Positions 53,701 through 64,000 of a DNA stretch of 64,000 bases are shown piece by piece. The stretch spans positions 186,001-250,000 of the forward strand of contig JBHGNT010000029.1 in the NCBI GenBank assembly GCA_043228905.1, given 5' to 3'. The stretch is from Azolla caroliniana (taxonomy: Eukaryota; Plantae; Polypodiophyta). The notes beneath the pieces were generated by a model. That model searched no databases. It was not told where the DNA came from and was given only the letters and a program-made list of their open reading frames with translations. The translations under genes and the position numbers were made by a program. Every line of letters starts with the position of its first letter. The stretch's first letter is position 1.

Positions 53701-54694
53701 TCTTCATGTCTCTCGACCTGAGTTTCTAGATCTAGATTTTTTCATTCCATATCATAGCTAGCGTTGTTAGCTCCGATTCCCATGTTTGAACACAGAAATC
53801 CGATATCACACGAGCCACGTATAAACATTTTAATTTGCTCAAGCGCTCTACTCAACTCCCTACTCAAATTTGGTAATATCTTCATGTCTTTCGACGTGAG
53901 TTTCAAAATCTTGATTTTTTAATTCCATATCCTAGCTAGCGTTGTTAGCTTCGAATGGCATGTTTGAACACAAAAATCCGATATCACACGAGCGAGGTAT
54001 GAACAATTTAATTTACTCATTCGCCCTACTCAACTCCCTCCTCAAATTTGGTAATTTCGTCATGTCTCTCAACCTGAGTTTTAAAATCTGAGATTTTTAA
54101 TTCCATATCATAGGTAGCGTTGTTAGCTTCGATTTGCATGTTTGAACAGAGAAATCCGATATCACACGAGCGAGGTATGAACAATTTAATTTACTCATTC
54201 GCCCTACTCAACTCCCTCCTCAAATTTGGTAATTTCTTCATGTCTCTCGACCTGAATTGCAAAATTTAGATTTTGTAATTCCATATCATAGCTAGCGTTG
54301 TTAGCTTCGATTCGCATGTTTGAACAGAGAAATCCGATATCACACAAGGGAGGTATTAACATTTTAATTTACTCAAGGGCTCTACTCAACTCCCTCCTCA
54401 AATTTGCTAATTTCTTCATGTCTCTCGACCTGAGTTTCCAGATCTAGATTTTTTCATTCCATATCATAGCTAGCGTTGTTAGCTTCGATTTGCATGTTTG
54501 AACACAGGAATCCGATATCACATGAGCGAGGTATGAACATTTTAATTTGCTCAAGGACTCTACTCAACTCCCTCCTCAAATTTGCTAATTTCTTCATGTC
54601 TCGCGACCTGAGTTTCGAGATCTGGATTTTTTAATTCCATATCCTAGCTAGCGTTGTTAGCTTCGAATGGCATGTTTGAACACAAAAATCCGAT

Positions 54695-54935
54695 TATGCC
54701 TTTATTGCGGTGGACCAGGGCATATCGCGATAAACTGTCCCCATAGACCAAGAAGGCAGGTAAACCAAGTCGTTGTTAGTTCTGACTATACTAAACCCGA
54801 GTCTATTTCAGTAGAAATCTCTGAAATAGTCCTAATAGTACTAATAGTCATAATAGTCCTAATAGTACTAATAGTCCGAATCTCGCAAACAAATTTGATG
54901 TCCTTAGCCAATTAGAAGAAGAGTTAAACGACTAA
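54695..54935 (+). pseudogene. gag: gag C-terminal remnant (zinc knuckle plus Asn/Ser-rich tail)
   Basis: CLYCGGPGHIAINC (C-X2-C-X4-H-X4-C) at 54697-54738. Adding one A at 54824-54826 continues the frame as ENSPNSTNSHNSPNSTNSPNLANKFDVLSQLEEELND*, with TAA at 54933-54935. Confidence 0.85.
54825..54881 (+). repeat. 9-bp tandem repeat AATAGT(CCT/ACT/CAT/CCG) x6 in the gag tail
   Basis: aatagtcct aatagtact aatagtcat aatagtcct aatagtact aatagtccg aat. Confidence 0.9.
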
Positions 54936-56428
54936 GTCCAGCCAAAATAGGAGCCGTTTGGTTGGACAGCCCTAGATCTGTGCAGCCCATTAGTGGTTCC
55001 ATTCCCTCTAAGCAAGTTAGTGATGTGTTCGTAGCCCAAGTAGCAGTTATTACTAAAAGTACCCCTCCAGTACATACCTTAGCCCTTCTAGATTCCGGAG
55101 CTAATTCTTGCTTCATGGATAGGAATTTTGCCCGAGCTCATCAGATATCTCTCAGAAAGCTCCCATGTCCAGCCTCAGTAGTAGTCATTGATGGTCGTCC
55201 CATTGCTTCTGGTAATATCATAGAAGAGTCGGAACCCGTTAATATTGTCCTAGATAACTTAACATGTGTAGTATCATTTAATATTATTAGTATTCCAGAA
55301 CATCCCATAGTTTTAGGATTACCATGGTTCGAGTTACATAACCCAGACATAGATTGGAGGACAAGGGAAATCCGGTTGCGACAAACCCAAGGATCTACCC
55401 AGAAGGTTGCAACCATTTCGCTACGTCAGTTGCGTGAGGAAGGGCGCAAGGAGGAAATGTTTCTCTTCGCAATATCAGTACAACCCTCCAGCACCACCAA
55501 AGAGGAGTCCACCGTTCAACTTCCCGAGAAGTATCGTCAGTATGCTGATGTGTTCGATAAAGTACAAGCCAACACACTTCCTCATCATCGGCCGTACGAT
55601 TGCGCCATCGACTTACAACCGGGAAAAGAGCCGCCATGGGGGCCGATCTACAATTTGTCACCAACCGAGCTAGAAGTCCTTCGAGCCTATATAGAGGAGA
55701 ATTTGGAGAACGGTTTCATTCGGCATTCGAAATCTCCAGCCGGCGCACCCATTTTCTTCGTCAAGAAAAAAGATGGCTCGCTTCGACTCGTTGTAGATTA
55801 CCGTGGCTTGAATAAGGTCACAGTAAGAAATAGGTATGCTCTTCCCCTTATCTCAAGTCTTTTAGAACGGATCAACGGTGCCAGGTTCTTCACGAAGATC
55901 GACTTACGAGGAGCCTATAACCTCGTACGGATCCGACCAGGAGATGAATGGAAGACCGCGTTTCGCACCAGATATGGGCACTTCGAGTATACGGTCATGC
56001 CGTTCGGACTCACTAATGCGCCGGCAGTCTTCCAGCACATGGCGAATGATATATTTCGAGATCTCTTGGATGATTTTTTGATCATCTATTTGGATGATCT
56101 ACTGGTTTATTCAAAGACCCAAGAAGAACATGATTCTCATGTACTATTAGTACTAAAACGACTTCGAGAACATGGTCTGTATGCAAAGTTAGAGAAATGT
56201 AGTTTCGGGTGCAACCAAGTGGAATTTCTCGGCTATGTCATCTCCTCAGAAGGCATATCTATGGACCCAGCCAAGGTCAAAACGGTGATAGAATGGCACA
56301 CTCCGCGTTCGGTGCGGGATGTGCAATGCTTCCTAGGCTTTGCAAATTTTTACCGGAAGTTCATACAAAATTACTCAAAAATTGTGCTGCCTCTCACACA
56401 GCTCACGAGGAAGGGACAATCATTCATT
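54908..56428 (+). CDS. pol: pol, 5' part: aspartic protease and reverse transcriptase
   Basis: Frame open from 54908 (track ORF 54962-56494). LLDSGA protease motif with Asp at 55091; RT motifs KKKDGSLRLVVDYRGLN, KIDLRGAY, MPFGLTNAPAVFQ and YLDD (56087-56098). Homology switches frame at ~56428. Confidence 0.93.
54923..54975 (+). promoter_or_regulatory. Putative -1 programmed ribosomal frameshift signal (gag to pol)
   Basis: Heptamer G TTA AAC (54923-54929), 6-nt spacer, then an 11-bp stem GTCCAGCCAAA (54936-54946) / TTTGGTTGGAC (54957-54967) with one G-U pair. The pol frame is -1 relative to the restored gag tail. Confidence 0.75.
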
Positions 56429-58518
56429 GGTCTAAAGAGACGGACATGGCTTTCGAGAGTCTTAAGAAGGCGTTTACATCAGCTCCAATTTTAGGTCATG
56501 TGGATCCGGAAAAACCATTCATTATCGAAGCTGACGCATCGGATTTCGCATTGGGGAGCATTCTGTCACAACAGGGTAACGACGAGAAGCTACATCCTGT
56601 GGCTTTCCACTCCCGTAAGTTTGACGCCGCCGAAATCAACTACGAAATTCATGATAAAGAGCTATTAGCAATAGTTGATTCTTTTATGCAATGGAGGCAT
56701 TTCCTGGAGGGATCTCCTCATCAGGTCACTGTATTCAGTGACCACAAGAACCTTGCCTACTTTCAAGATGCTCGTGTACTGAATCGACGTCAAGCTCGGT
56801 GGGCCCACTTCCTCACACGCTTCGACTTCAAAATTACATATCGTCCGGGGAAGCACCAAGGGAAGGCAGATGCATTATCACGGCGTTCGTATCTAACACC
56901 ACGTCCCGGTGAGCCAGCTTTCGATAACCAGAAGCAAGTAATCTTGGGTCCAGCACGACTGCAAGCAGCACAGGTCTTTGACATGCCCGTGGATTCCGAC
57001 ATTACCAATACTATACGTGAGGACTTGAAGACTGACGCTTTCGCCCAAGCTATACTAGCACAAATTGACCCCTCTCGAGCATCATGTTCACAATCACAAT
57101 CACCAGGTACGGATTATCGGCAATTCAAATACTGTGATGGATTACTCTTCTTTAAAGAACTTTTGTATGTTCCTAATGGTTCTTGCCGCCTTCGAGTAGT
57201 ACAAAACTGCCATGACACATATACAGCAGGACATTTTGGTAGTACTAAAACATTAGATTTAGTACAACGATCATTCTGGTGGCCCCATATGCGACAATTT
57301 ATCGAAGATTTTGTTCGGACTTGCGATACATGCTGCAGAGCGAAAATGCCAAGACATCATCCATATGGTTTATTAGAACCATTACCAATTCCAAGCAAGC
57401 CATGGCAATCCATTGCTCTTGACTTCATTACAGATCTTCCAGTCTCTAAGGGATTCAGTGCGATTCTCACAGTGGTGGATCGATATACGAAGATGGCTCA
57501 TTTCTTACCATGTACTAAAGAAATATCTAGTGAAGACACCGCCGAAATTGTCATGCGGGAAGTATGTCGGCATCATGGACTCCCTGATAATATCATCAGC
57601 GATCGTGGACCCCAGTTTGTGTCAAAATTCTGGAAGCACCTTTTTAAAATGCTGAAGGTCACTTGTAACCTCTCCTCCGGCTACCACCCACAAACCGACG
57701 GTCAAGCCGAACGAACAAATCAAACACTGGAGCAGTATCTGCGGTGCTTTCTCAACTATCATCAGAATGACTGGGCAGATATTCTTCAGTTTGCCGAATT
57801 TGCCTATAATAACGCTATCCACGCATCGACTAAAGTCACGCCATTCTACGCTTATACGGGATATCATCCCCGGTGGTGTGTCCTTGAAACCCCAGAAGTG
57901 TCCACAAATCCTTGCGCGGAGGATCGTTTGGAGCGATTACGCAAGATACAAGCGGATTTATCTACTCAACTCCAGCAAGCTCAACAATCACACAAGGACT
58001 ACGCAGATCGTCATCGACTTCCATCCAGTTTTAACATTGGAGATCGGGTGTGGCTGCTACGACGACACATCAAGACTACTCGCCCATGTGAGAAGTTGGA
58101 TTATCGGCGATTAGGTCCTTTCCGTATTATCGGGAAGATTAATGATGTCGCTTTTCGTCTCGAGCTACCTCCGCAACTTCGGATACATCCGGTGTTTCAT
58201 AGTTCTCTCCTCGAACCCTATCACGAGAGCACTATCCCAGGACGTACTATACAACCACCACCTCCTATCGAGCTCGAAGATGGACCTGAGTATGAGGTCG
58301 CTGCCATCCTCGATTCCAAGATTGTTCGCAACAAGCTCTACTATCTAGTCGATTGGCTAGGATATAGTCCCAGCGAGCGTACTTGGGAACCGATCGAGAA
58401 TGTGACCAATGCTCGTGCTCTTCTAGAAGACTTCCATCGACGATATCCCGAGAAACCGGGTCCTCAATCCAAAACGACTCGTGGAACTCGTCGTTTTAAA
58501 GGGGGGATAGTGTCATAA
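56428..58518 (+). CDS. pol: pol, 3' part: RT connection, RNase H, integrase and chromodomain
   Basis: Track ORF 56209-58518, real from WSKETD. RNase H EADASDFALG and DKELLAIV...SDHKNL; integrase HHCC (57211-57333) and D(57421)-D(57601)-35-E(57709); GPF motif RLGPFRI. The stop codon lies 8 nt inside the LTR. Confidence 0.93.
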   Translation, partial: WSKETDMAFESLKKAFTSAPILGHVDPEKPFIIEADASDFALGSILSQQGNDEKLHPVAFHSRKFDAAEINYEIHDKELLAIVDSFMQWRHFLEGSPHQVTVFSDHKNLAYFQDARVLNRRQARWAHFLTRFDFKITYRPGKHQGKADALSRRSYLTPRPGEPAFDNQKQVILGPARLQAAQVFDMPVDSDITNTIREDLKTDAFAQAILAQIDPSRASCSQSQSPGTDYRQFKYCDGLLFFKELLYVPNGSCRLRVVQNCHDTYTAGHFGSTKTLDLVQRSFWWPHMRQFIEDFVRTCDTCCRAKMPRHHPYGLLEPLPIPSKPWQSIALDFITDLPVSKGFSAILTVVDRYTKMAHFLPCTKEISSEDTAEIVMREVCRHHGLPDNIISDRGPQFVSKFWKHLFKMLKVTCNLSSGYHPQTDGQAERTNQTLEQYLRCFLNYHQNDWADILQFAEFAYNNAIHASTKVTPFYAYTGYHPRWCVLETPEVSTNPCAEDRLERLRKIQADLSTQLQQAQQSHKDYADRHRLPSSFNIGDRVWLLRRHIKTTRPCEKLDYRRLGPFRIIGKINDVAFRLELPPQLRIHPVFHSSLLEPYHESTIPGRTIQPPPPIELEDGPEYEVAAILDSKIVRNKLYYLVDWLGYSPSERTWEPIENVTNARALLEDFHRRYPEKPGPQSKTTRGTRRFKGGIVS
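58291..58449 (+). other. Integrase C-terminal chromodomain (classical group I, aromatic cage retained)
   Basis: YEVAAILDSKIVRNKLYYLVDWLGYSPSERTWEPIENV matches the HP1-like pattern Y-x-V-x-x-I...YLVxWxGY...TWEP. Confidence 0.92.
58498..58510 (+). promoter_or_regulatory. Polypurine tract (plus-strand primer)
   Basis: AAAGGGGGGATAG directly abuts the TG at the LTR start. Confidence 0.9.
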
Positions 58519-58581
58519 CTAGACTCGAACCCATAACCTTTTGTTACACGGGTCGAGACTTTACCATTAGGTTATGAATTG
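58511..58581 (-). promoter_or_regulatory. tRNA-like unit / putative Pol III type-2 internal promoter (A-box plus B-box), antisense in LTR U3
   Basis: The minus strand reads CAATTCA TA ACCT AATGGTA AAGT C TCGAC CCGTGTA ACAAA AGGTT ATGGG TTCGAGT CTAGT TATGACA. A-box-like TAACCTAATGG (58574-58564) and B-box GGTTCGAGTC (58531-58522) sit at canonical tRNA spacing. The stems are degenerate, so it is not a functional tRNA. Confidence 0.6.
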
Positions 58582-58632
58582 TAATTTGAAGGATATTATT
58601 TTCATTTAGGTTTTATTGGGGAATTGATGTAT

Positions 58633-58682
58633 ATTCCAGATTTCTCTGGAACATGCTAGAAACTTCAGGAGTATTCCTGAAG
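58633..58682. promoter_or_regulatory. Putative heat-shock element array (10 alternating nTTCn/nGAAn pentamers)
   Basis: TTCcaGATttCTCtgGAAcaTGCtaGAAacTTCagGAGtaTTCctGAA: strict 5-bp phase, with 6 perfect and 4 single-mismatch triplets. Confidence 0.65.
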
Positions 58683-58686
58683 ACAC

Positions 58687-58694
58687 TATAAAAG
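58687..58694 (+). promoter_or_regulatory. LTR TATA box
   Basis: TATAAAAG within U3 of the LTR. Confidence 0.7.
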
Positions 58695-58800
58695 GAGGCG
58701 CAAGGCATTAGTTCGAACCAAATCGGTTCAACGCCAGTCTTAAGCCTTCTAACTACTGTTGTATATCTTCCTTCATATAATACATATATCATTCGCATCA

Positions 58801-58804
<4 letters not shown>

Positions 58805-58850
<46 letters not shown>
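58805..58850. repeat. (TC)23 microsatellite in the LTR
   Basis: Perfect TC dinucleotide run. Confidence 0.97.
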
Positions 58851-58854
<4 letters not shown>

Positions 58855-58888
58855 ACTCATTGCTTCTCTCAAAGTTCGACACCTCTCA

Positions 58889-58970
58889 TAGTACTAATCC
58901 TTCTCTGTCTTAGTACTATTCCCCAACAATAGTACTAATCCTTCTTTTAGTACTAATTCCTTCTCTGCCT
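58889..58970 (+). repeat. Four ~20-bp degenerate repeats with palindromic TAGTACTA core in LTR U5
   Basis: TAGTACTA at 58889, 58911, 58930 and 58948, three of them followed by AT(T)CCTTCT. Confidence 0.85.
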
Positions 58971-58987
58971 TAATAGAGTTCCTGACA

Positions 58988-61900
58988 CTCAACTCCCTTC
59001 TGAAATTTGGTAATTTCTTCATGTCTCTCGAACTGAATTTCAAAATTTAGATTTTTTAATTCCAGATCATAGCTAGCGTTGTTAGCTTGGATTCGCATGT
59101 TTGAACACAAAAATCCGATATCACACGAGCGAGGTATGAACAATTTAATTTACTCATTCGCCCTACTCAACTCCCTCCTCAAATTTGGTAATTTCGTCAT
59201 GTCTCTCGACCTGAGTTTTAAAATCTGAGATTTTTAATTCGATATCATAGCTAGCGTTGTTAGCTTCGATTTGCATGTTTGAACAGAGAAATCCGATATC
59301 ACACGAGCGAGGTATGAACAATTTAATTTACTCATTCGCCCTACTCAACTCCCTCCTCAAATTTGGTAATTTCTTCATGTCTCTCGACCTGAATTGCAAA
59401 ATTTAGATTTTGTAATTCCATATCATAGCTAGCGTTGTTAGCTTCGATTCGCATGTTTGAACAGAGAAATCCGATATCACACAAGCGAGGTATTAACATT
59501 TTAATTTACTCAAGGGCTCTACTCAACTCCCTCCTCAAATTTGCTAATTTCTTCATGTCTCTCGACCTGAGTTTCCAGATCTGGATTTTTTCATTCCATA
59601 TCATAGCTAGCGTTGTTAGCTCTGATTCCCATGTTTGAACACAGAAATCCGATATTACACGAGCCAGGTATGAACATTTTAATTTGCTCAAGGGCTCTAC
59701 TCAACTCCCTCCTCAAATTTGGTAATTTCTTCATGTCTCTCGACGTGAGTTTCAAAATCTTGATTTTTTAATTCCATATCATAGCTAGCGTTGTTAGCTT
59801 CGAATGGCATGTTTCAACACAAAAATCCGATATCACACGAGCGAGGTATGAACAATTTAATTTACTCATTCGCCCTACTCAACTCCCTCCTAAAATTTGG
59901 TAATTTCTTCATGTCTCTCGACCTGAGTTTCGAGATCTGGATTTTTTAATTCCATATCATAGCTAGAGTTGTTTGCTTCGATTTGCATGTTTGAACAGAG
60001 AAATCCGATATCACACGAGCGAGGTATGAACAATTTAATCTACTCATTCGCCCTACTCAACTCCCTCCTCAAATTTGGTAATTTCTTCATGTCTCTCGAC
60101 CTGAGTTTTAAAATCTTGATTTTTTTATTCCATATCATAGCTAGCGTTGTTAGTTCCGATTCCCATGTTTGAACAGAAAAATCCGATATCACACGAGCGA
60201 GGTATCAACAATTTAATTTACTCATTCGCCCTACTCAACTCCCTCCTAAAATTTGGTAATTTCTTCATGTCTCTCGACCTTAGTTTCGAGATCTCGATTT
60301 TTTAATTCTATATCATAGCTAGCGTTGTTAGCTTCGATTCGCATGTTTGAACACAGGAATCCGATATCACACGAGCGAGCTATAAACAATTTAATTTACT
60401 CATTCGCCCTACTCAACTCCCTCCTCAAATTTGGTAATTTCTTCATGTCTCTCCACCTGAATTTCACAATCTTGATTTTTTAATTCCATATCCCAGCTAG
60501 CATTGTTAGCTTCGAATGGCATGTTTGAACACAAAAATCCGATATTACACGAGCTAGGTCTAAACATTTTAATTTGCTCAAGGGCTCTACTCAACTCCCT
60601 CCTCAAATTTGGTAATTTCTTCATGTCTCTCGACCTGAGTTTCAAAATCTTGATTTTTTAATTCCATATCATAGCTAGCGTTGTTAGCTCCGATTCCCAT
60701 GTTTGAACACAAAAATCCGATATTACACGAGCCAGGTATGAACATTTTAATTTGCTCAAGAGCTCTACTCAACTCCCTCCTAAAATTTGGTAATTTCTTC
60801 ATGTCTCTCGACCTGAGTTTCAAAATCTTGATTTTTTAATTCCATATCCTAGCTAGCGTTGTTAGCTTCGATTTGCATGTTTGAACACAGGAATCCGATA
60901 TCACACGAGCGAAGTATGAACATTTTAATTTGCTCAAGGACTCTACTCAACTCCCTCCTCAAATTTGCTAATGTCTTCATGTCTCTCGACCTGAGTTTCG
61001 AGATCTGGATTTTTTAATTCCATATCATAGCTAGAGTTGTTAGCTTCGATTTGCATGTTTGAACAGAGAAATCCGATATCACACGAGCGAGGTATGAACA
61101 ATTTAATTTACTCATTCGCCCTACTCAACTCCCTCCTCAAATTTGGTAATTTCTTCATGTCTCTCCACCTGAATTTCACAATCTTGATTTTTTAATTCCA
61201 TATCCCAGCTAGCGTTGTTAGCTTCGAATGGCATGTTTGAACACAAAAATCCGATATTACACGAGCTAGGTCTAAACATTTTAATTTGCTCAAGGGCTCT
61301 ACTCAACTCCCTCCTCAAATTTGGTAATTTCTTCATGTCTCTCGACCTGAATTTCAAAATTTAGATTTTTTAAATCCATATCATAGCTAGCGTTGTTAGC
61401 TTCGATTCGCATGTTTGAACAGAGAAATCCGATATCACACAGGCGAGGTATTAACATTTTAATTTACTCAAGGGCTCTACTCAACTCCCTCCTCAAATTT
61501 GCTAATTTCTTCATGTCTCTCGACCTGAGTTTCCAGATCTAGATTTTTTCATTCCATATCATAGCTAGCGTTGTTAGCTCCGATTCCCATGTTTGAACAC
61601 AGAAATCCGATATCACACGAGCCACGTATAAACATTTTAATTTGCTCAAGCGCTCTACTCAACTCCCTCCTCAAATTTGGTAATATCTTCATGTCTTTCG
61701 ACCTGAGTTTCAAAATCTTGATTTTTTAATTCCATATCCTAGCTAGCGTTGTTAGCTTCGAATGGCATGCTTGACCACAAAAATCCGATATCACACGAGC
61801 GAGGTATGAACAATTTAATTTACTCATTCGCCATACTCAACTCCATCCTCAAATTTGGTAATTTCGTCATGTCTCCCGACCTGAGTTTTAAAATCTGAGT

Positions 61901-64000
61901 TTTTTAATTCCATATCATAGCTAGCGTTGTTAGCTTCGATTTGCATGTTTGAACAGAGAAATTCGATATCACACGAGCAAGGTATGAACAATTTAATTTA
62001 CTCATTCGCCCTACTCAACTCCCTCCTCAAATTTGGTTATTTCTTCATGTCTCTCGACCTGAATTTCAAAATTTAGATTTTTTAATTCCATATCATAGCT
62101 AGCGTTGTTAGCTTCGATTCGCATGTTTGAACAGAGAAATCCGATATCACACGAGCGAGCTATGAACAATTTAATTTACTCATTCGCCCTACTCAACTCC
62201 CTCCTCAAAGTTGCTAATTTCGTCATGTCTCTCCACCTGAGTTTCACAATCTTGATTTCTTAATTCCATATCATAGCTAGCGTTGTTAGCTTCGATTCGC
62301 ATGTTTGAACACAGAAATCCGATATCACACGAGCCAGGTATGAACATTTTAATTTGCTCAAGGGCTCTACTCAACTCCCTCCTAAAATTTGGTAATTTCT
62401 TCATGTCTCTCGACCTGAGTTTCAAAATCTTGATTTTTTACTTCCATATCATAGCTAGCGTTGTTAGCTTCAAATGGCATGTTTGAACACAAAAATCCGA
62501 TATCACACGAGCGAGGTATGAACAATTTAATTTACTCATTCGCCCTACTCAACTCCCTCCTAAAATTTGGTAATTTCTTCATGTCTCTCGACCTGAGTTT
62601 CGAGATCTAGATTTTTTAATTCCATATCATAGCTAGAGTTGTTAGCTTCGATTTGCATGTTTGAACAGAGAAATCCGATATCACACGAGTGCGGTATGAA
62701 GAATTTAATCTACTCATTCACCCTACTCAACCCCCTCCTCAAATTTGCTAATTTCTTCATGTCTCTCGACCTGAGTTTCCAGATCTGGATTTTGTCATTC
62801 CATATCATAGCTAGCGTTGTTAGCTCCGATTTGCATGTTTGAACACAGAAATCCGATATTACACGAGCTAGGTATGAACATTTTAATTTGCTCAAGGGCT
62901 CTACTCAACTCCCTCCTCAAATTTGGTAATTTCTTCATGTCTGTCGACCTGAGTTTCAAAATCTTGATTTTTTAATTCCATATCATAGCTAGCGTTGTTA
63001 GCTTTGAATGGCATGTTTGAACACAAAAATCCGATATCACACGAGCGAGGTATGAACAATTTAATTTACTCATTCGCCCTACTCAACTCCCTCCTAAAAT
63101 TTGGTAATTTCGTCATGTCGCTCGACCTGAGTTTCGAGATCTGGATTTTTTAATTCCATATCATAGCTAGAGTTGTTAGCTTCGATTTGCATGTTTGAAC
63201 AGAGAAATCCGATATCACACGAGCGAGGTATGAACAATTTAATTTACTCATTCGCCCTACTCAACTCCCTCCTCAAATTTGGTAATTTCTACATGTCTCT
63301 TGACCTGAATTTCAAAATTTAGATTTTGTAATTCCATATCATAGCTAGCGTTGTTAGCTTCGATTCGCATGTTTGAACAGAGAAATCCGATATCACACAA
63401 GCGAGGTATTAACATTTTAATTTACTCAAGGGCTCTACTCAACTCCCTCCTCAAATTTGCTAATTTCTTCATGTCTCTCGACCTGAGTTTCCAGATCTAG
63501 ATTTTTTCATTCCATATCATAGCTAGCGTTGTTAGCTCCGATTCCCATGTTTGAACACAGAAATCCGATATCACACGAGCCACGTATAAACATTTTAATT
63601 TGCTCAAGCGCTCTACTCAACTCCCTACTCAAATTTGGTAATATCTTCATGTCTTTCGACGGGAGTTTCAAAATCTTGATTTTTTAATTCCATATCCTAG
63701 GTAGCGTTGTTAGCTTCGAATGGCATGCTTGACCACAAAAATCCGATATCACACGAGCGAGGTATGAACAATTTAATTTACTCATTCGCCATACTCAACT
63801 CCATCCTCAAATTTGGTAATTTCGTCATGTCTCCCGACCTGAGTTTTAAAATCTGAGTTTTTTAATTCCATATCATAGCTAGCGTTGTTAGCTTCGATTT
63901 GCATGTTTGAACAGAGAAATTCGATATCACACGAGCAAGGTATGAACAATTTAATTTACTCATTCGCCCTACTCAACTCCCTCCTCAAATTTGGTTATTT
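58988..64000. repeat. 178-bp tandem satellite array, right arm, about 28 monomers
   Basis: Same monomer and orientation as the left arm. An 11-mer spacing recurs (private variant CATGCTTGACC at ~61770 and ~63728, offset 1958), and a 4-mer repeat gives ORFs at 60409 and 61121. Confidence 0.98.

What the first reader, a model, noticed from the sequence alone, without database searches (positions are those of the whole stretch)
58624..58694. Ten-unit phased heat-shock-element array abutting the LTR TATA box
Seen: alternating TTC/GAA triplets every 5 bp from 58634 to 58681, possibly extending to TTG at 58624 and GTA at 58629, ending 5 bp before TATAAAAG. The same sequence forms two dyads (TTCCAGA/TCTGGAA and CTTCAGGA/TCCTGAAG). 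Known: HSF trimers bind inverted nGAAn repeats, and the best-characterised heat-activated plant LTR element (ONSEN) is Ty1/Copia. Inference: a heat-inducible Gypsy chromovirus. This orphan 3' LTR could also drive stress-induced transcription into the downstream satellite, analogous to HSF1-driven satellite III RNA.
Basis: partly seen in the sequence, partly recalled or inferred. Interest (0 to 1): 0.72.

Follow-up and report, generated by a model that had tools for sequence, protein, structure and literature searches.

The report
Fern retrotransposon family carrying heat-shock switches
This is a real, family-wide cluster of predicted heat-shock-factor binding sites in the promoter of an abundant jumping gene of a seed-free plant (likely a fern), which would let the family switch on with the host's heat response, but this particular broken copy carries a weakened version and nothing here shows it transcribing the neighbouring satellite DNA.

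Summary
In detail: ten pentamers in exact 5-bp phase (six perfect, four with one mismatch) end 5 bp before TATAAAAG; no shuffle of 5,000 comes near, and it outscores 24 host small-HSP promoters. It lies in U3 of the 477-bp 3' LTR of a 5'-truncated, self-priming (Tcn1-like) Ty3/Gypsy chromovirus. The host is likely a fern. A covarying self-priming duplex puts the transcription start 33 nt after this TATA. The four-unit core is perfect in 70 of 81 family LTRs (70-100% alike), and phase and spacing are kept. The family's core 18-mer makes up 3,807 of the genome's 5,872 perfect four-unit sites, and sister LTR families often carry such elements. This copy is among the minority whose core is broken by a private substitution. 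Best reading: an ONSEN-like, HSF-driven LTR promoter, inferred and untested. No heat RNA or binding data were available. Read-through into the satellite is unsupported: a single insertion, likely methylated, with no family preference for the satellite. HSE-bearing LTRs are known (Copia ONSEN, flatworm Ty3/Gypsy, putatively fungal TCN3/TCN12); a plant chromovirus case at this scale was not found in print.

The parts
58634..58681 (+). Ten-unit phased nGAAn/nTTCn array (predicted heat-shock element) in U3
   Evidence: phase kept at 45 nt in 74 of 81 LTRs
58649..58666 (+). Four-unit core; perfect (4P type) in most family LTRs, broken at its second unit by a private substitution in this copy
   Evidence: 70 of 81 perfect; this copy's variant occurs 2 times genome-wide against 3,807 for the family core
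58619..58631 (+). Up to three further degenerate in-phase units upstream
58687..58694 (+). TATA box (TATAAAAG)
   Evidence: 33 nt to the self-priming start in 80 of 81 LTRs
58720..58731 (+). Inferred transcription start and 12-nt self-primer, complementary to the site just inside the 5' LTR of full-length copies
   Evidence: compensatory C-G versus T-A pair between subfamilies
58511..58987 (+). 3' LTR, 477 bp, TGTCA...TGACA, with a (TC)n tract at 58805-58858
58497..58510 (+). Polypurine tract
   Evidence: sequence; PPT-LTR junction occurs 1,058 times in the genome, control 0
54908..58518 (+). pol (PR-RT-RH-IN-chromodomain), split by one frameshift near 56,400 in this copy
54690..54935 (+). 3' end of gag (CCHC knuckle read by eye); the 5' truncation joins satellite to gag through a short microhomology ending in CCGAT
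58988..64000 (.). 178-bp satellite array resuming directly after the LTR (also 12-54694)
   Evidence: LTR-satellite junction unique in the genome

Best explanation
The array is a conserved cluster of predicted heat-shock-factor sites in the U3 promoter of a high-copy, self-priming Ty3/Gypsy chromovirus, and it likely lets host HSF trimers switch on the family's transcription under heat or related proteotoxic stress, as ONSEN does in Arabidopsis. Shown: the array, its place 20 nt (core) and 5 nt (last unit) upstream of the TATA, its conservation in phase across diverged subfamilies, and about ten HSF DNA-binding-domain loci in the host. Inferred: two or three HSF trimers bind cooperatively on the 4P core and flanking units; Pol II starts about 33 nt after TATA; the first 12 nt of the RNA fold onto the internal primer site to start reverse transcription. 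The array likely grew by 10-bp duplications and is kept by selection on transposing lineages. The copy in this window is a 5'-truncated, frameshifted remnant whose core is weakened (gap-type at best) and is probably methylated, so it is a passive witness of the family trait rather than a special stress promoter for the satellite.
For: Score 17 against a shuffle maximum of 8; 24 host small-HSP upstream regions score 3-13 with the same grammar; a host HSP70-like gene promoter shows a 6-unit element (HSP70 identity read by eye from an EKVVGIDLGTTN-type stretch, recalled motif). In 81 LTRs chosen by the PPT, not by the HSE (pairwise identity 0.70-1.00, median 0.85), the core units are GAA 79, TTC 76, GAA 80 and TTC 76 of 81; a perfect 3-unit element is in 75 and a perfect 4-unit in 70. 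Core triplet sites with a change on an inner tree branch: 1 of 12, against 78 of 187 in the rest of U3/R (Fisher p = 0.018). Within the first eight units, 1 of 21 motif sites changed against 6 of 18 spacer or tolerated sites (p = 0.027; this split was chosen after seeing the data). Self-priming covariation fixes the start site. Genome-wide there are 5,872 perfect 4-unit sites against 54 for the reversed control; 3,807 are this family's core. In runs under three organism labels, the listed differences skip 58622-58673 except this copy's private site (19 rows not shown). HSF domains are present. Precedent: 4P elements are the strongest class and correlate with heat response (PMC5059998, passages); HSEs are necessary in flatworm Ty3 LTRs (PMC12801592, passages).
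Against: No binding or heat-expression data exist for this host. Over all ten units the motif-versus-spacer contrast is weak (4 of 27 against 8 of 21 sites), and the 5' part of the array is conserved in spacers too, so another factor could share the constraint. Two HSE-bearing flatworm Copia families were not induced. The array holds four CHG sites, unlike ONSEN, and CHG and CG sites mutate 3.7 and 2.6 times as often as A/T sites on terminal branches (5.9 and 4.2 against 1.6 changes per site), which points to methylation and possible silencing. The abundant moss Gypsy family RLG1 (recalled as Tcn1-type, not checked) is reported as repressed by heat, though its table values depend on the control chosen.
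Confidence: 0.68

Rival explanations
1. HSF binds the array, but the outcome is not simple heat induction: class B (repressor) HSFs or developmental and other-stress HSF activity set the pattern, or CHG methylation keeps the LTRs silent in heat except in particular cells.
For: CHG/CG deamination signature in family LTRs; about ten HSF loci of unknown class; HSE presence was not sufficient in two flatworm families; moss RLG1 reported repressed by heat.
Against: The 4P core and HSP-like grammar are typical of heat-induced promoters. Young copies have identical 5' and 3' LTRs (0 mismatches in 285 nt in 12 of 15 full-length copies), so the family has escaped silencing recently.
Confidence: 0.17
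2. One reading: this orphan 3' LTR works as a heat-induced promoter that reads through into the 178-bp satellite, like HSF1-driven satellite III RNA (recalled) or Athila2-driven cen180 transcripts.
For: The LTR points into the array, TATA and start site are intact, and a gap-type element (4 perfect of 5 units, 58659-58681) remains. LTR read-out into satellites is documented in Arabidopsis met1/ddm1/hda6 mutants (PMC1317654, passages).
Against: The junction is unique; 0 of 165 other family or sister loci touch the satellite; the satellite has no HSE of its own (score 3); this copy's core is broken. In Arabidopsis such read-out appeared only when silencing was lost. About 270 nt of R/U5, which normally ends transcripts (established LTR biology), lie between start and satellite.
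Confidence: 0.1
3. The array is a by-product of short palindromic duplications, or the site of an unrelated palindrome-binding factor, and its HSE match is incidental.
For: The array is built of overlapping dyads; sister families show runs of 10-bp repeats; spacer letters in the 5' part are also conserved.
Against: Changes fall mostly on spacers and already-mismatched letters while the GAA/TTC core and phase are kept. Families with unalignable LTRs converge on the same 4-unit motif upstream of TATA.
Confidence: 0.08

Closest known systems
ONSEN/COPIA78, TERESTRA, COPIA37, ROMANIAT5 (Brassicaceae Ty1/Copia; PMC3907296 and PMC5059998, passages) and rice Go-on (Copia; bioRxiv 10.1101/317479, passages)
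   Same: 4P-type nGAAn element in the LTR, likely built by duplication, conserved across related lineages.
   Different: This is Ty3/Gypsy with a chromodomain and self-priming, in a seed-free plant. It has 10-11 units rather than 4-6, thousands of LTR copies rather than about 8 elements, and CHG sites inside the array (ONSEN's LTR has none). HSF binding and heat induction are shown for ONSEN and not here.
Macrostomum lignano Ty3/Mdg4 families Mag, CsRN1, Gmr1 (PMC12801592, passages)
   Same: Ty3/Gypsy LTRs with canonical HSEs upstream of the start; several families in one genome.
   Different: Animal clades, 4-20 copies per family, experimentally validated; here a plant chromovirus with about 3,800 core sites, untested.
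Cryptococcus TCN3 and TCN12 (PMC12810828 and PMC9942834, passages)
   Same: Fungal LTR elements mobilised at 37 C with putative HSEs in the LTR; TCN3 is Ty3/Gypsy.
   Different: The TCN12 HSE is an imperfect step type and Hsf1 action is untested; the array here is far stronger.
Tcn1 clade of chromoviruses (REXdb, PMC6317226; Novikova 2010, PMC2864245; passages)
   Same: PR-RT-RH-IN-CHD order, aromatic-cage chromodomain, self-priming instead of a tRNA site, separate gag and pol frames, 5-bp target duplications, affinity to fungal Tf1/sushi elements.
   Different: Those papers report plant Tcn1 from mosses and Selaginella, not ferns, and the passages read mention no HSE. The LTR differs by eye from Physcomitrium RLG1 (first 400 letters of its supplement transcript).
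Athila2/106B LTR read-out into Arabidopsis cen180 (PMC1317654, passages)
   Same: An LTR embedded in a 178-bp satellite that could drive co-transcripts.
   Different: Seen only in silencing mutants and not HSF-linked; here no transcript is shown.

Membership tests
Canonical heat-shock element (3P/4P HRE) | At least three (4P: four) contiguous inverted nGAAn units in 5-bp phase | tested here: met
   Family: perfect 3-unit in 75 of 81 and 4-unit in 70 of 81 LTRs.
Canonical heat-shock element (3P/4P HRE) | The same strict pattern in this window's copy | tested here: not met
   This copy is one of 6 of 81 without a perfect 3-unit run; it keeps a gap-type element and all ten key G/C letters.
Canonical heat-shock element (3P/4P HRE) | Promoter-proximal position upstream of the working TATA | tested here: met
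   Last core unit starts 23 nt before TATA in 79 of 81; TATA 33 nt before the self-priming start in 80 of 81.
ONSEN-like heat-activated LTR retrotransposon | HSF binds the LTR | not testable with these tools
   No binding data; host HSF domains present.
ONSEN-like heat-activated LTR retrotransposon | Transcript and extrachromosomal DNA rise on heat | not testable with these tools
   No run with a known heat treatment was available.
ONSEN/COPIA78 family itself | Ty1/Copia domain order; LTR free of CG and CHG | tested here: not met
   Ty3/Gypsy order; four CHG sites in the array.
Ty3/Gypsy chromovirus | PR-RT-RH-IN order with a C-terminal chromodomain | tested here: met
   Pfam RVT_1, RT_RNaseH, rve, SH3_Tf2-1, Chromo E = 1.3e-14.
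Tcn1 clade | Self-priming instead of a tRNA primer site | tested here: met
   12-nt complement of the R start lies 2 nt inside the 5' LTR in 9 of 10 young copies (one has a mismatch). Compensatory pair: 3 copies T-A, 3 copies C-G, 1 of 7 not matched.
Tcn1 clade | Chromodomain with aromatic cage | tested here: met
   Y, W and Y cage positions read by eye in the translation.
Tcn1 clade | Phylogenetic placement with named Tcn1 references | tested here: inconclusive
   In a 27-row RH-IN tree it groups (99/95) with a Cunninghamella element and five unnamed elements, inside a fungal and vertebrate set (100/97) apart from seed-plant and algal rows. No named Tcn1, Galahad or Mordred sequence was available.
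Physcomitrium RLG1 | Same LTR sequence | tested here: not met
   By-eye comparison with the first 400 letters of the published RLG1 transcript.
Satellite-targeting (CRM-like) centromeric retrotransposon | Family enriched in satellite arrays | tested here: not met
   0 of 165 loci outside the window's contig carry the satellite; they come from C1-C9 only, mostly C1-C2, and a few loci overlap.

The most novel reading that the evidence does not exclude
HSF control is a clade-wide trait of self-priming Tcn1-type chromoviruses, shared with or convergent on fungal TCN3/TCN12. In this fern these elements have seeded most of the genome's high-affinity HSF sites (one family alone about 65% of perfect four-unit sites), enough to put neighbouring genes under heat control or to titrate HSF away from host heat-shock genes.
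Probability: 0.25. Interest if true: 0.72.

Novelty: new member of a known kind. Interest (0 to 1): 0.47.

Why it matters
If confirmed, it would be the first HSF-wired Ty3/Gypsy chromovirus in plants that my searches could find, since the validated plant cases are Copia. It is a large, recently active family, so heat waves could be a driver of genome growth in this fern. Thousands of strong HSF sites on one repeat family make it directly testable whether transposons rewire or dilute a plant's heat-shock response. Natural strong and weak LTR variants, including this copy, already exist as controls.

Tried and rejected
(1) Moss host or RLG1 identity: first assumed, then rejected. The RLG1 LTR differs, and the nearest named relatives of a host small-HSP exon are ferns (Ceratopteris 85%, Adiantum 76-81%). 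(2) Expression: no RNA holder listed. Three poly(A) runs under a related organism label, with unknown treatment, laid 90, 71 and 8 reads from about 12 million each, none 99% alike and on both strands. These say nothing on heat. (3) Best-hit LTR search gave only the youngest subfamily (33 of 33 identical in U3/R), useless for conservation, so a PPT-based sample replaced it. In one search, 10 of 90 loci were dropped as truncated, interrupted or short-aligning; all 90 come from C1-C2. (4) My recollection that rice Go-on is Gypsy was wrong: it is Copia. (5) The longer-protein search gave no named close relative (best 55%, unnamed). (6) Earlier findings by sequence and by words: none. By place: unrelated elements only. 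(7) No AATAAA signal in the LTR; the termination site is not determined. (8) Literature searches for a plant chromovirus or Tcn1 element with an HSE, or heat-activated fern retrotransposons, found none. The library lacks most subscription papers, bioRxiv supplements were not seen, and most hits were seen as listings only.

Full report
Observation. From 58634, pentamers in one 5-bp phase read TTC GAT CTC GAA TGC GAA TTC GAG TTC GAA, six perfect and four with one mismatch. All keep the critical G of GAA or C of TTC. The last ends at 58681, five bases before TATAAAAG. With a simple home-made score (2 per perfect unit, 1 per one-mismatch unit keeping G/C) the array scores 17; 5,000 dinucleotide shuffles of the 294-nt U3/R reach at most 8, the pol region 5 and the satellite 3. 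It is not chance.

Anatomy. The array lies in the 477-bp 3' LTR (58511-58987, TGTCA...TGACA) after a polypurine tract, at the end of a 4.3-kb insert in a 178-bp satellite array. The insert encodes PR-RT-RH-IN-chromodomain, so it is a Ty3/Gypsy chromovirus, with one frameshift near 56,400. The 5' LTR and most of gag are gone; satellite and gag are joined through a short microhomology. The copy is about 99% identical to ten young full-length copies of 5.74-5.80 kb with 5-bp target duplications. Twelve of 15 full-length copies have identical 5' and 3' U3/R regions, and 3 of 6 examined keep uninterrupted gag and pol frames. The family is young and large: 1,922 candidate matches and 1,058 PPT-LTR junctions.

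The TATA is the promoter TATA. Full-length copies have no tRNA-like site by eye. Instead, 12 nt just inside the 5' LTR are complementary to LTR positions 58720-58731. Between subfamilies this duplex covaries: three copies have a C-G pair, three a T-A pair, and one of seven was not matched. Self-priming uses the transcript's first nucleotides (established for Tf1/sushi; predicted for plant Tcn1 in PMC6317226, passages). The start is therefore near 58720, 33 nt after the TATA, a spacing kept in 80 of 81 LTRs. A tree places RH-IN with fungal and unnamed elements apart from seed-plant chromoviruses, but held no named Tcn1 reference. The host is likely a fern: the nearest named relatives of a host small-HSP exon are Ceratopteris and Adiantum. 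The small 523-Mb assembly suggests a heterosporous water fern (inference); I did not pursue the source further.

Conservation. To avoid choosing copies by the motif, I took 90 of the first 100 listed PPT-LTR junctions (C1-C2), dropped 10 truncated or interrupted ones, and aligned 80 with the window. At 70-100% identity, the four core units are GAA 79, TTC 76, GAA 80 and TTC 76 of 81. A perfect four-unit element is in 70 and a three-unit in 75. The ten-unit span is 45 nt in 74, while the 5' part of U3 varies in length. Only 1 of 12 core motif sites changes on an inner branch, against 78 of 187 elsewhere (p = 0.018). In the first eight units, motif sites change less than spacers (1 of 21 against 6 of 18, p = 0.027, split chosen after the fact). 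Over all ten units the contrast is weak (4 of 27 against 8 of 21). The two units next to the TATA are the most variable, so the 'abutting' part is not the selected part; the core ends 20 nt upstream. In runs under three organism labels the listed differences also spare 58622-58673 (19 rows not shown).

This copy is atypical. All 33 best-matching LTRs differ from it at the second core unit, where they are perfect. Its variant occurs twice in the genome, the other in a distant subfamily. It retains a gap-type element.

Positive controls and scale. Upstream regions of 24 host HSP20 matches score 3-13 with the same TTCTAGAA-type grammar, and the host has about ten HSF-domain loci. Perfect four-unit sites number 5,872 genome-wide against 54 for the reversed control. 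This family's core 18-mer accounts for 3,807, or 65% (family origin checked for five loci, inferred for the rest). Other LTR families carry such elements too. In 30 LTRs picked by a PPT variant, 18 have a perfect three-unit element, in five of eight clusters; excluding three from this family it is 16 of 27. One cluster of three has none. A score of 7 or more was reached by 18 of 30 LTRs and 1 of 30 upstream controls. This sample is partly circular, since the PPT variant came from LTRs first found by the motif.

Mechanism. Most likely (0.68), host HSF trimers bind the core and flanking units under heat or related stress and drive full-length RNA, which self-primes. This works like ONSEN (HSFA2 binding shown, PMC3907296; 4P class strongest, PMC5059998) without being a member of that Copia family. 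Binding and induction are inferred, not shown. Against: the array holds four CHG sites, and CHG/CG sites show elevated mutation, so the LTRs are probably methylated. HSEs were not sufficient in two flatworm families, and moss RLG1 is reported as heat-repressed (table values depend on the control). The RNA runs available were of a related organism with unknown treatment and decide nothing.

Satellite read-through. Possible in principle (Athila2 into cen180 in silencing mutants, PMC1317654) but unsupported here. The junction is unique, none of 165 other loci touches the satellite, the satellite has no HSE, and this copy has the weakened core. I put it at about 0.1.

Novelty. HSE-bearing LTRs are known in plant Copia and flatworm Ty3/Gypsy, and putatively in Cryptococcus TCN3 and TCN12. 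HSE-bearing Helitrons in C. elegans are mentioned. Bamboo Ty3/Gypsy PHRE1/2 were studied under heat with other transcription factors implicated (PMC8656106, passages), and a review lists heat-induced Gypsy elements in Cryptomeria (PMC9780303, passages). I found no report of an HSE in a plant chromovirus or in fern retroelements. Plant Tcn1 was described from mosses and Selaginella only. For all papers I read passages only, plus two parts of the main text and supplementary tables 1-2 of PMC7466625; PMC8282616 and PMC6786969 (passages) added nothing on this point. Verdict: a real and likely functional heat-shock promoter of a known kind, in a new host lineage and clade and at unusual scale. Interest 0.47.

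Noticed in passing
window 58720-58731; L031-L040, L171-L174: Self-priming duplex with a compensatory base-pair change between subfamilies: direct comparative support for Tf1-type self-priming in a plant chromovirus, and a possible range extension of Tcn1-like elements to ferns.
   Followed up: partly
L163, L166/L169, L162/L164, L167, L184-L204: Several sister LTR families with LTRs that do not align with this one beyond short stretches (integrase region roughly 46-69% identical where present) also carry perfect 3-4 unit HSEs upstream of TATA; one family (L176, L178, L201) instead has CATGCA-type repeats.
   Followed up: partly
window 54684-54694: The 5' truncation fuses satellite to gag through a short microhomology and removes about 46 bp of a satellite unit along with the 5' LTR.
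   Followed up: yes
window 12-54694 and 58988-64000; L041-L044: 178-bp satellite array of more than 90 kb on a 375-kb contig, with local length variants (205, 157, 127, 131 bp); candidate centromeric repeat, untested.
   Followed up: no
L044:5270-10000 with L043:1-3114; L041:4933-5688: Other inserts in the same array: an element of about 7.8 kb with an internal repeat, and a 750-bp TG...CA solo-LTR-like piece, neither matching this family.
   Followed up: no
G000:C9:17.88-18.26 Mb (L138-L157): Tandem cluster of 16 small heat-shock-protein gene matches; the one examined (L144) appears split by an intron.
   Followed up: no
window 54825-54881 and 58890-58955: A 9-bp AATAGTCCT/AGTACTAAT-type repeat in the gag tail resembles, on the opposite strand, the AGTACTA repeats in U5; 11 bases here differ in length from young full-length copies.
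   Followed up: no
L047-L049 (G000:C1:3.017 Mb): Three tandem 354-bp repeats of the chromodomain-PPT-LTR start junction.
   Followed up: no
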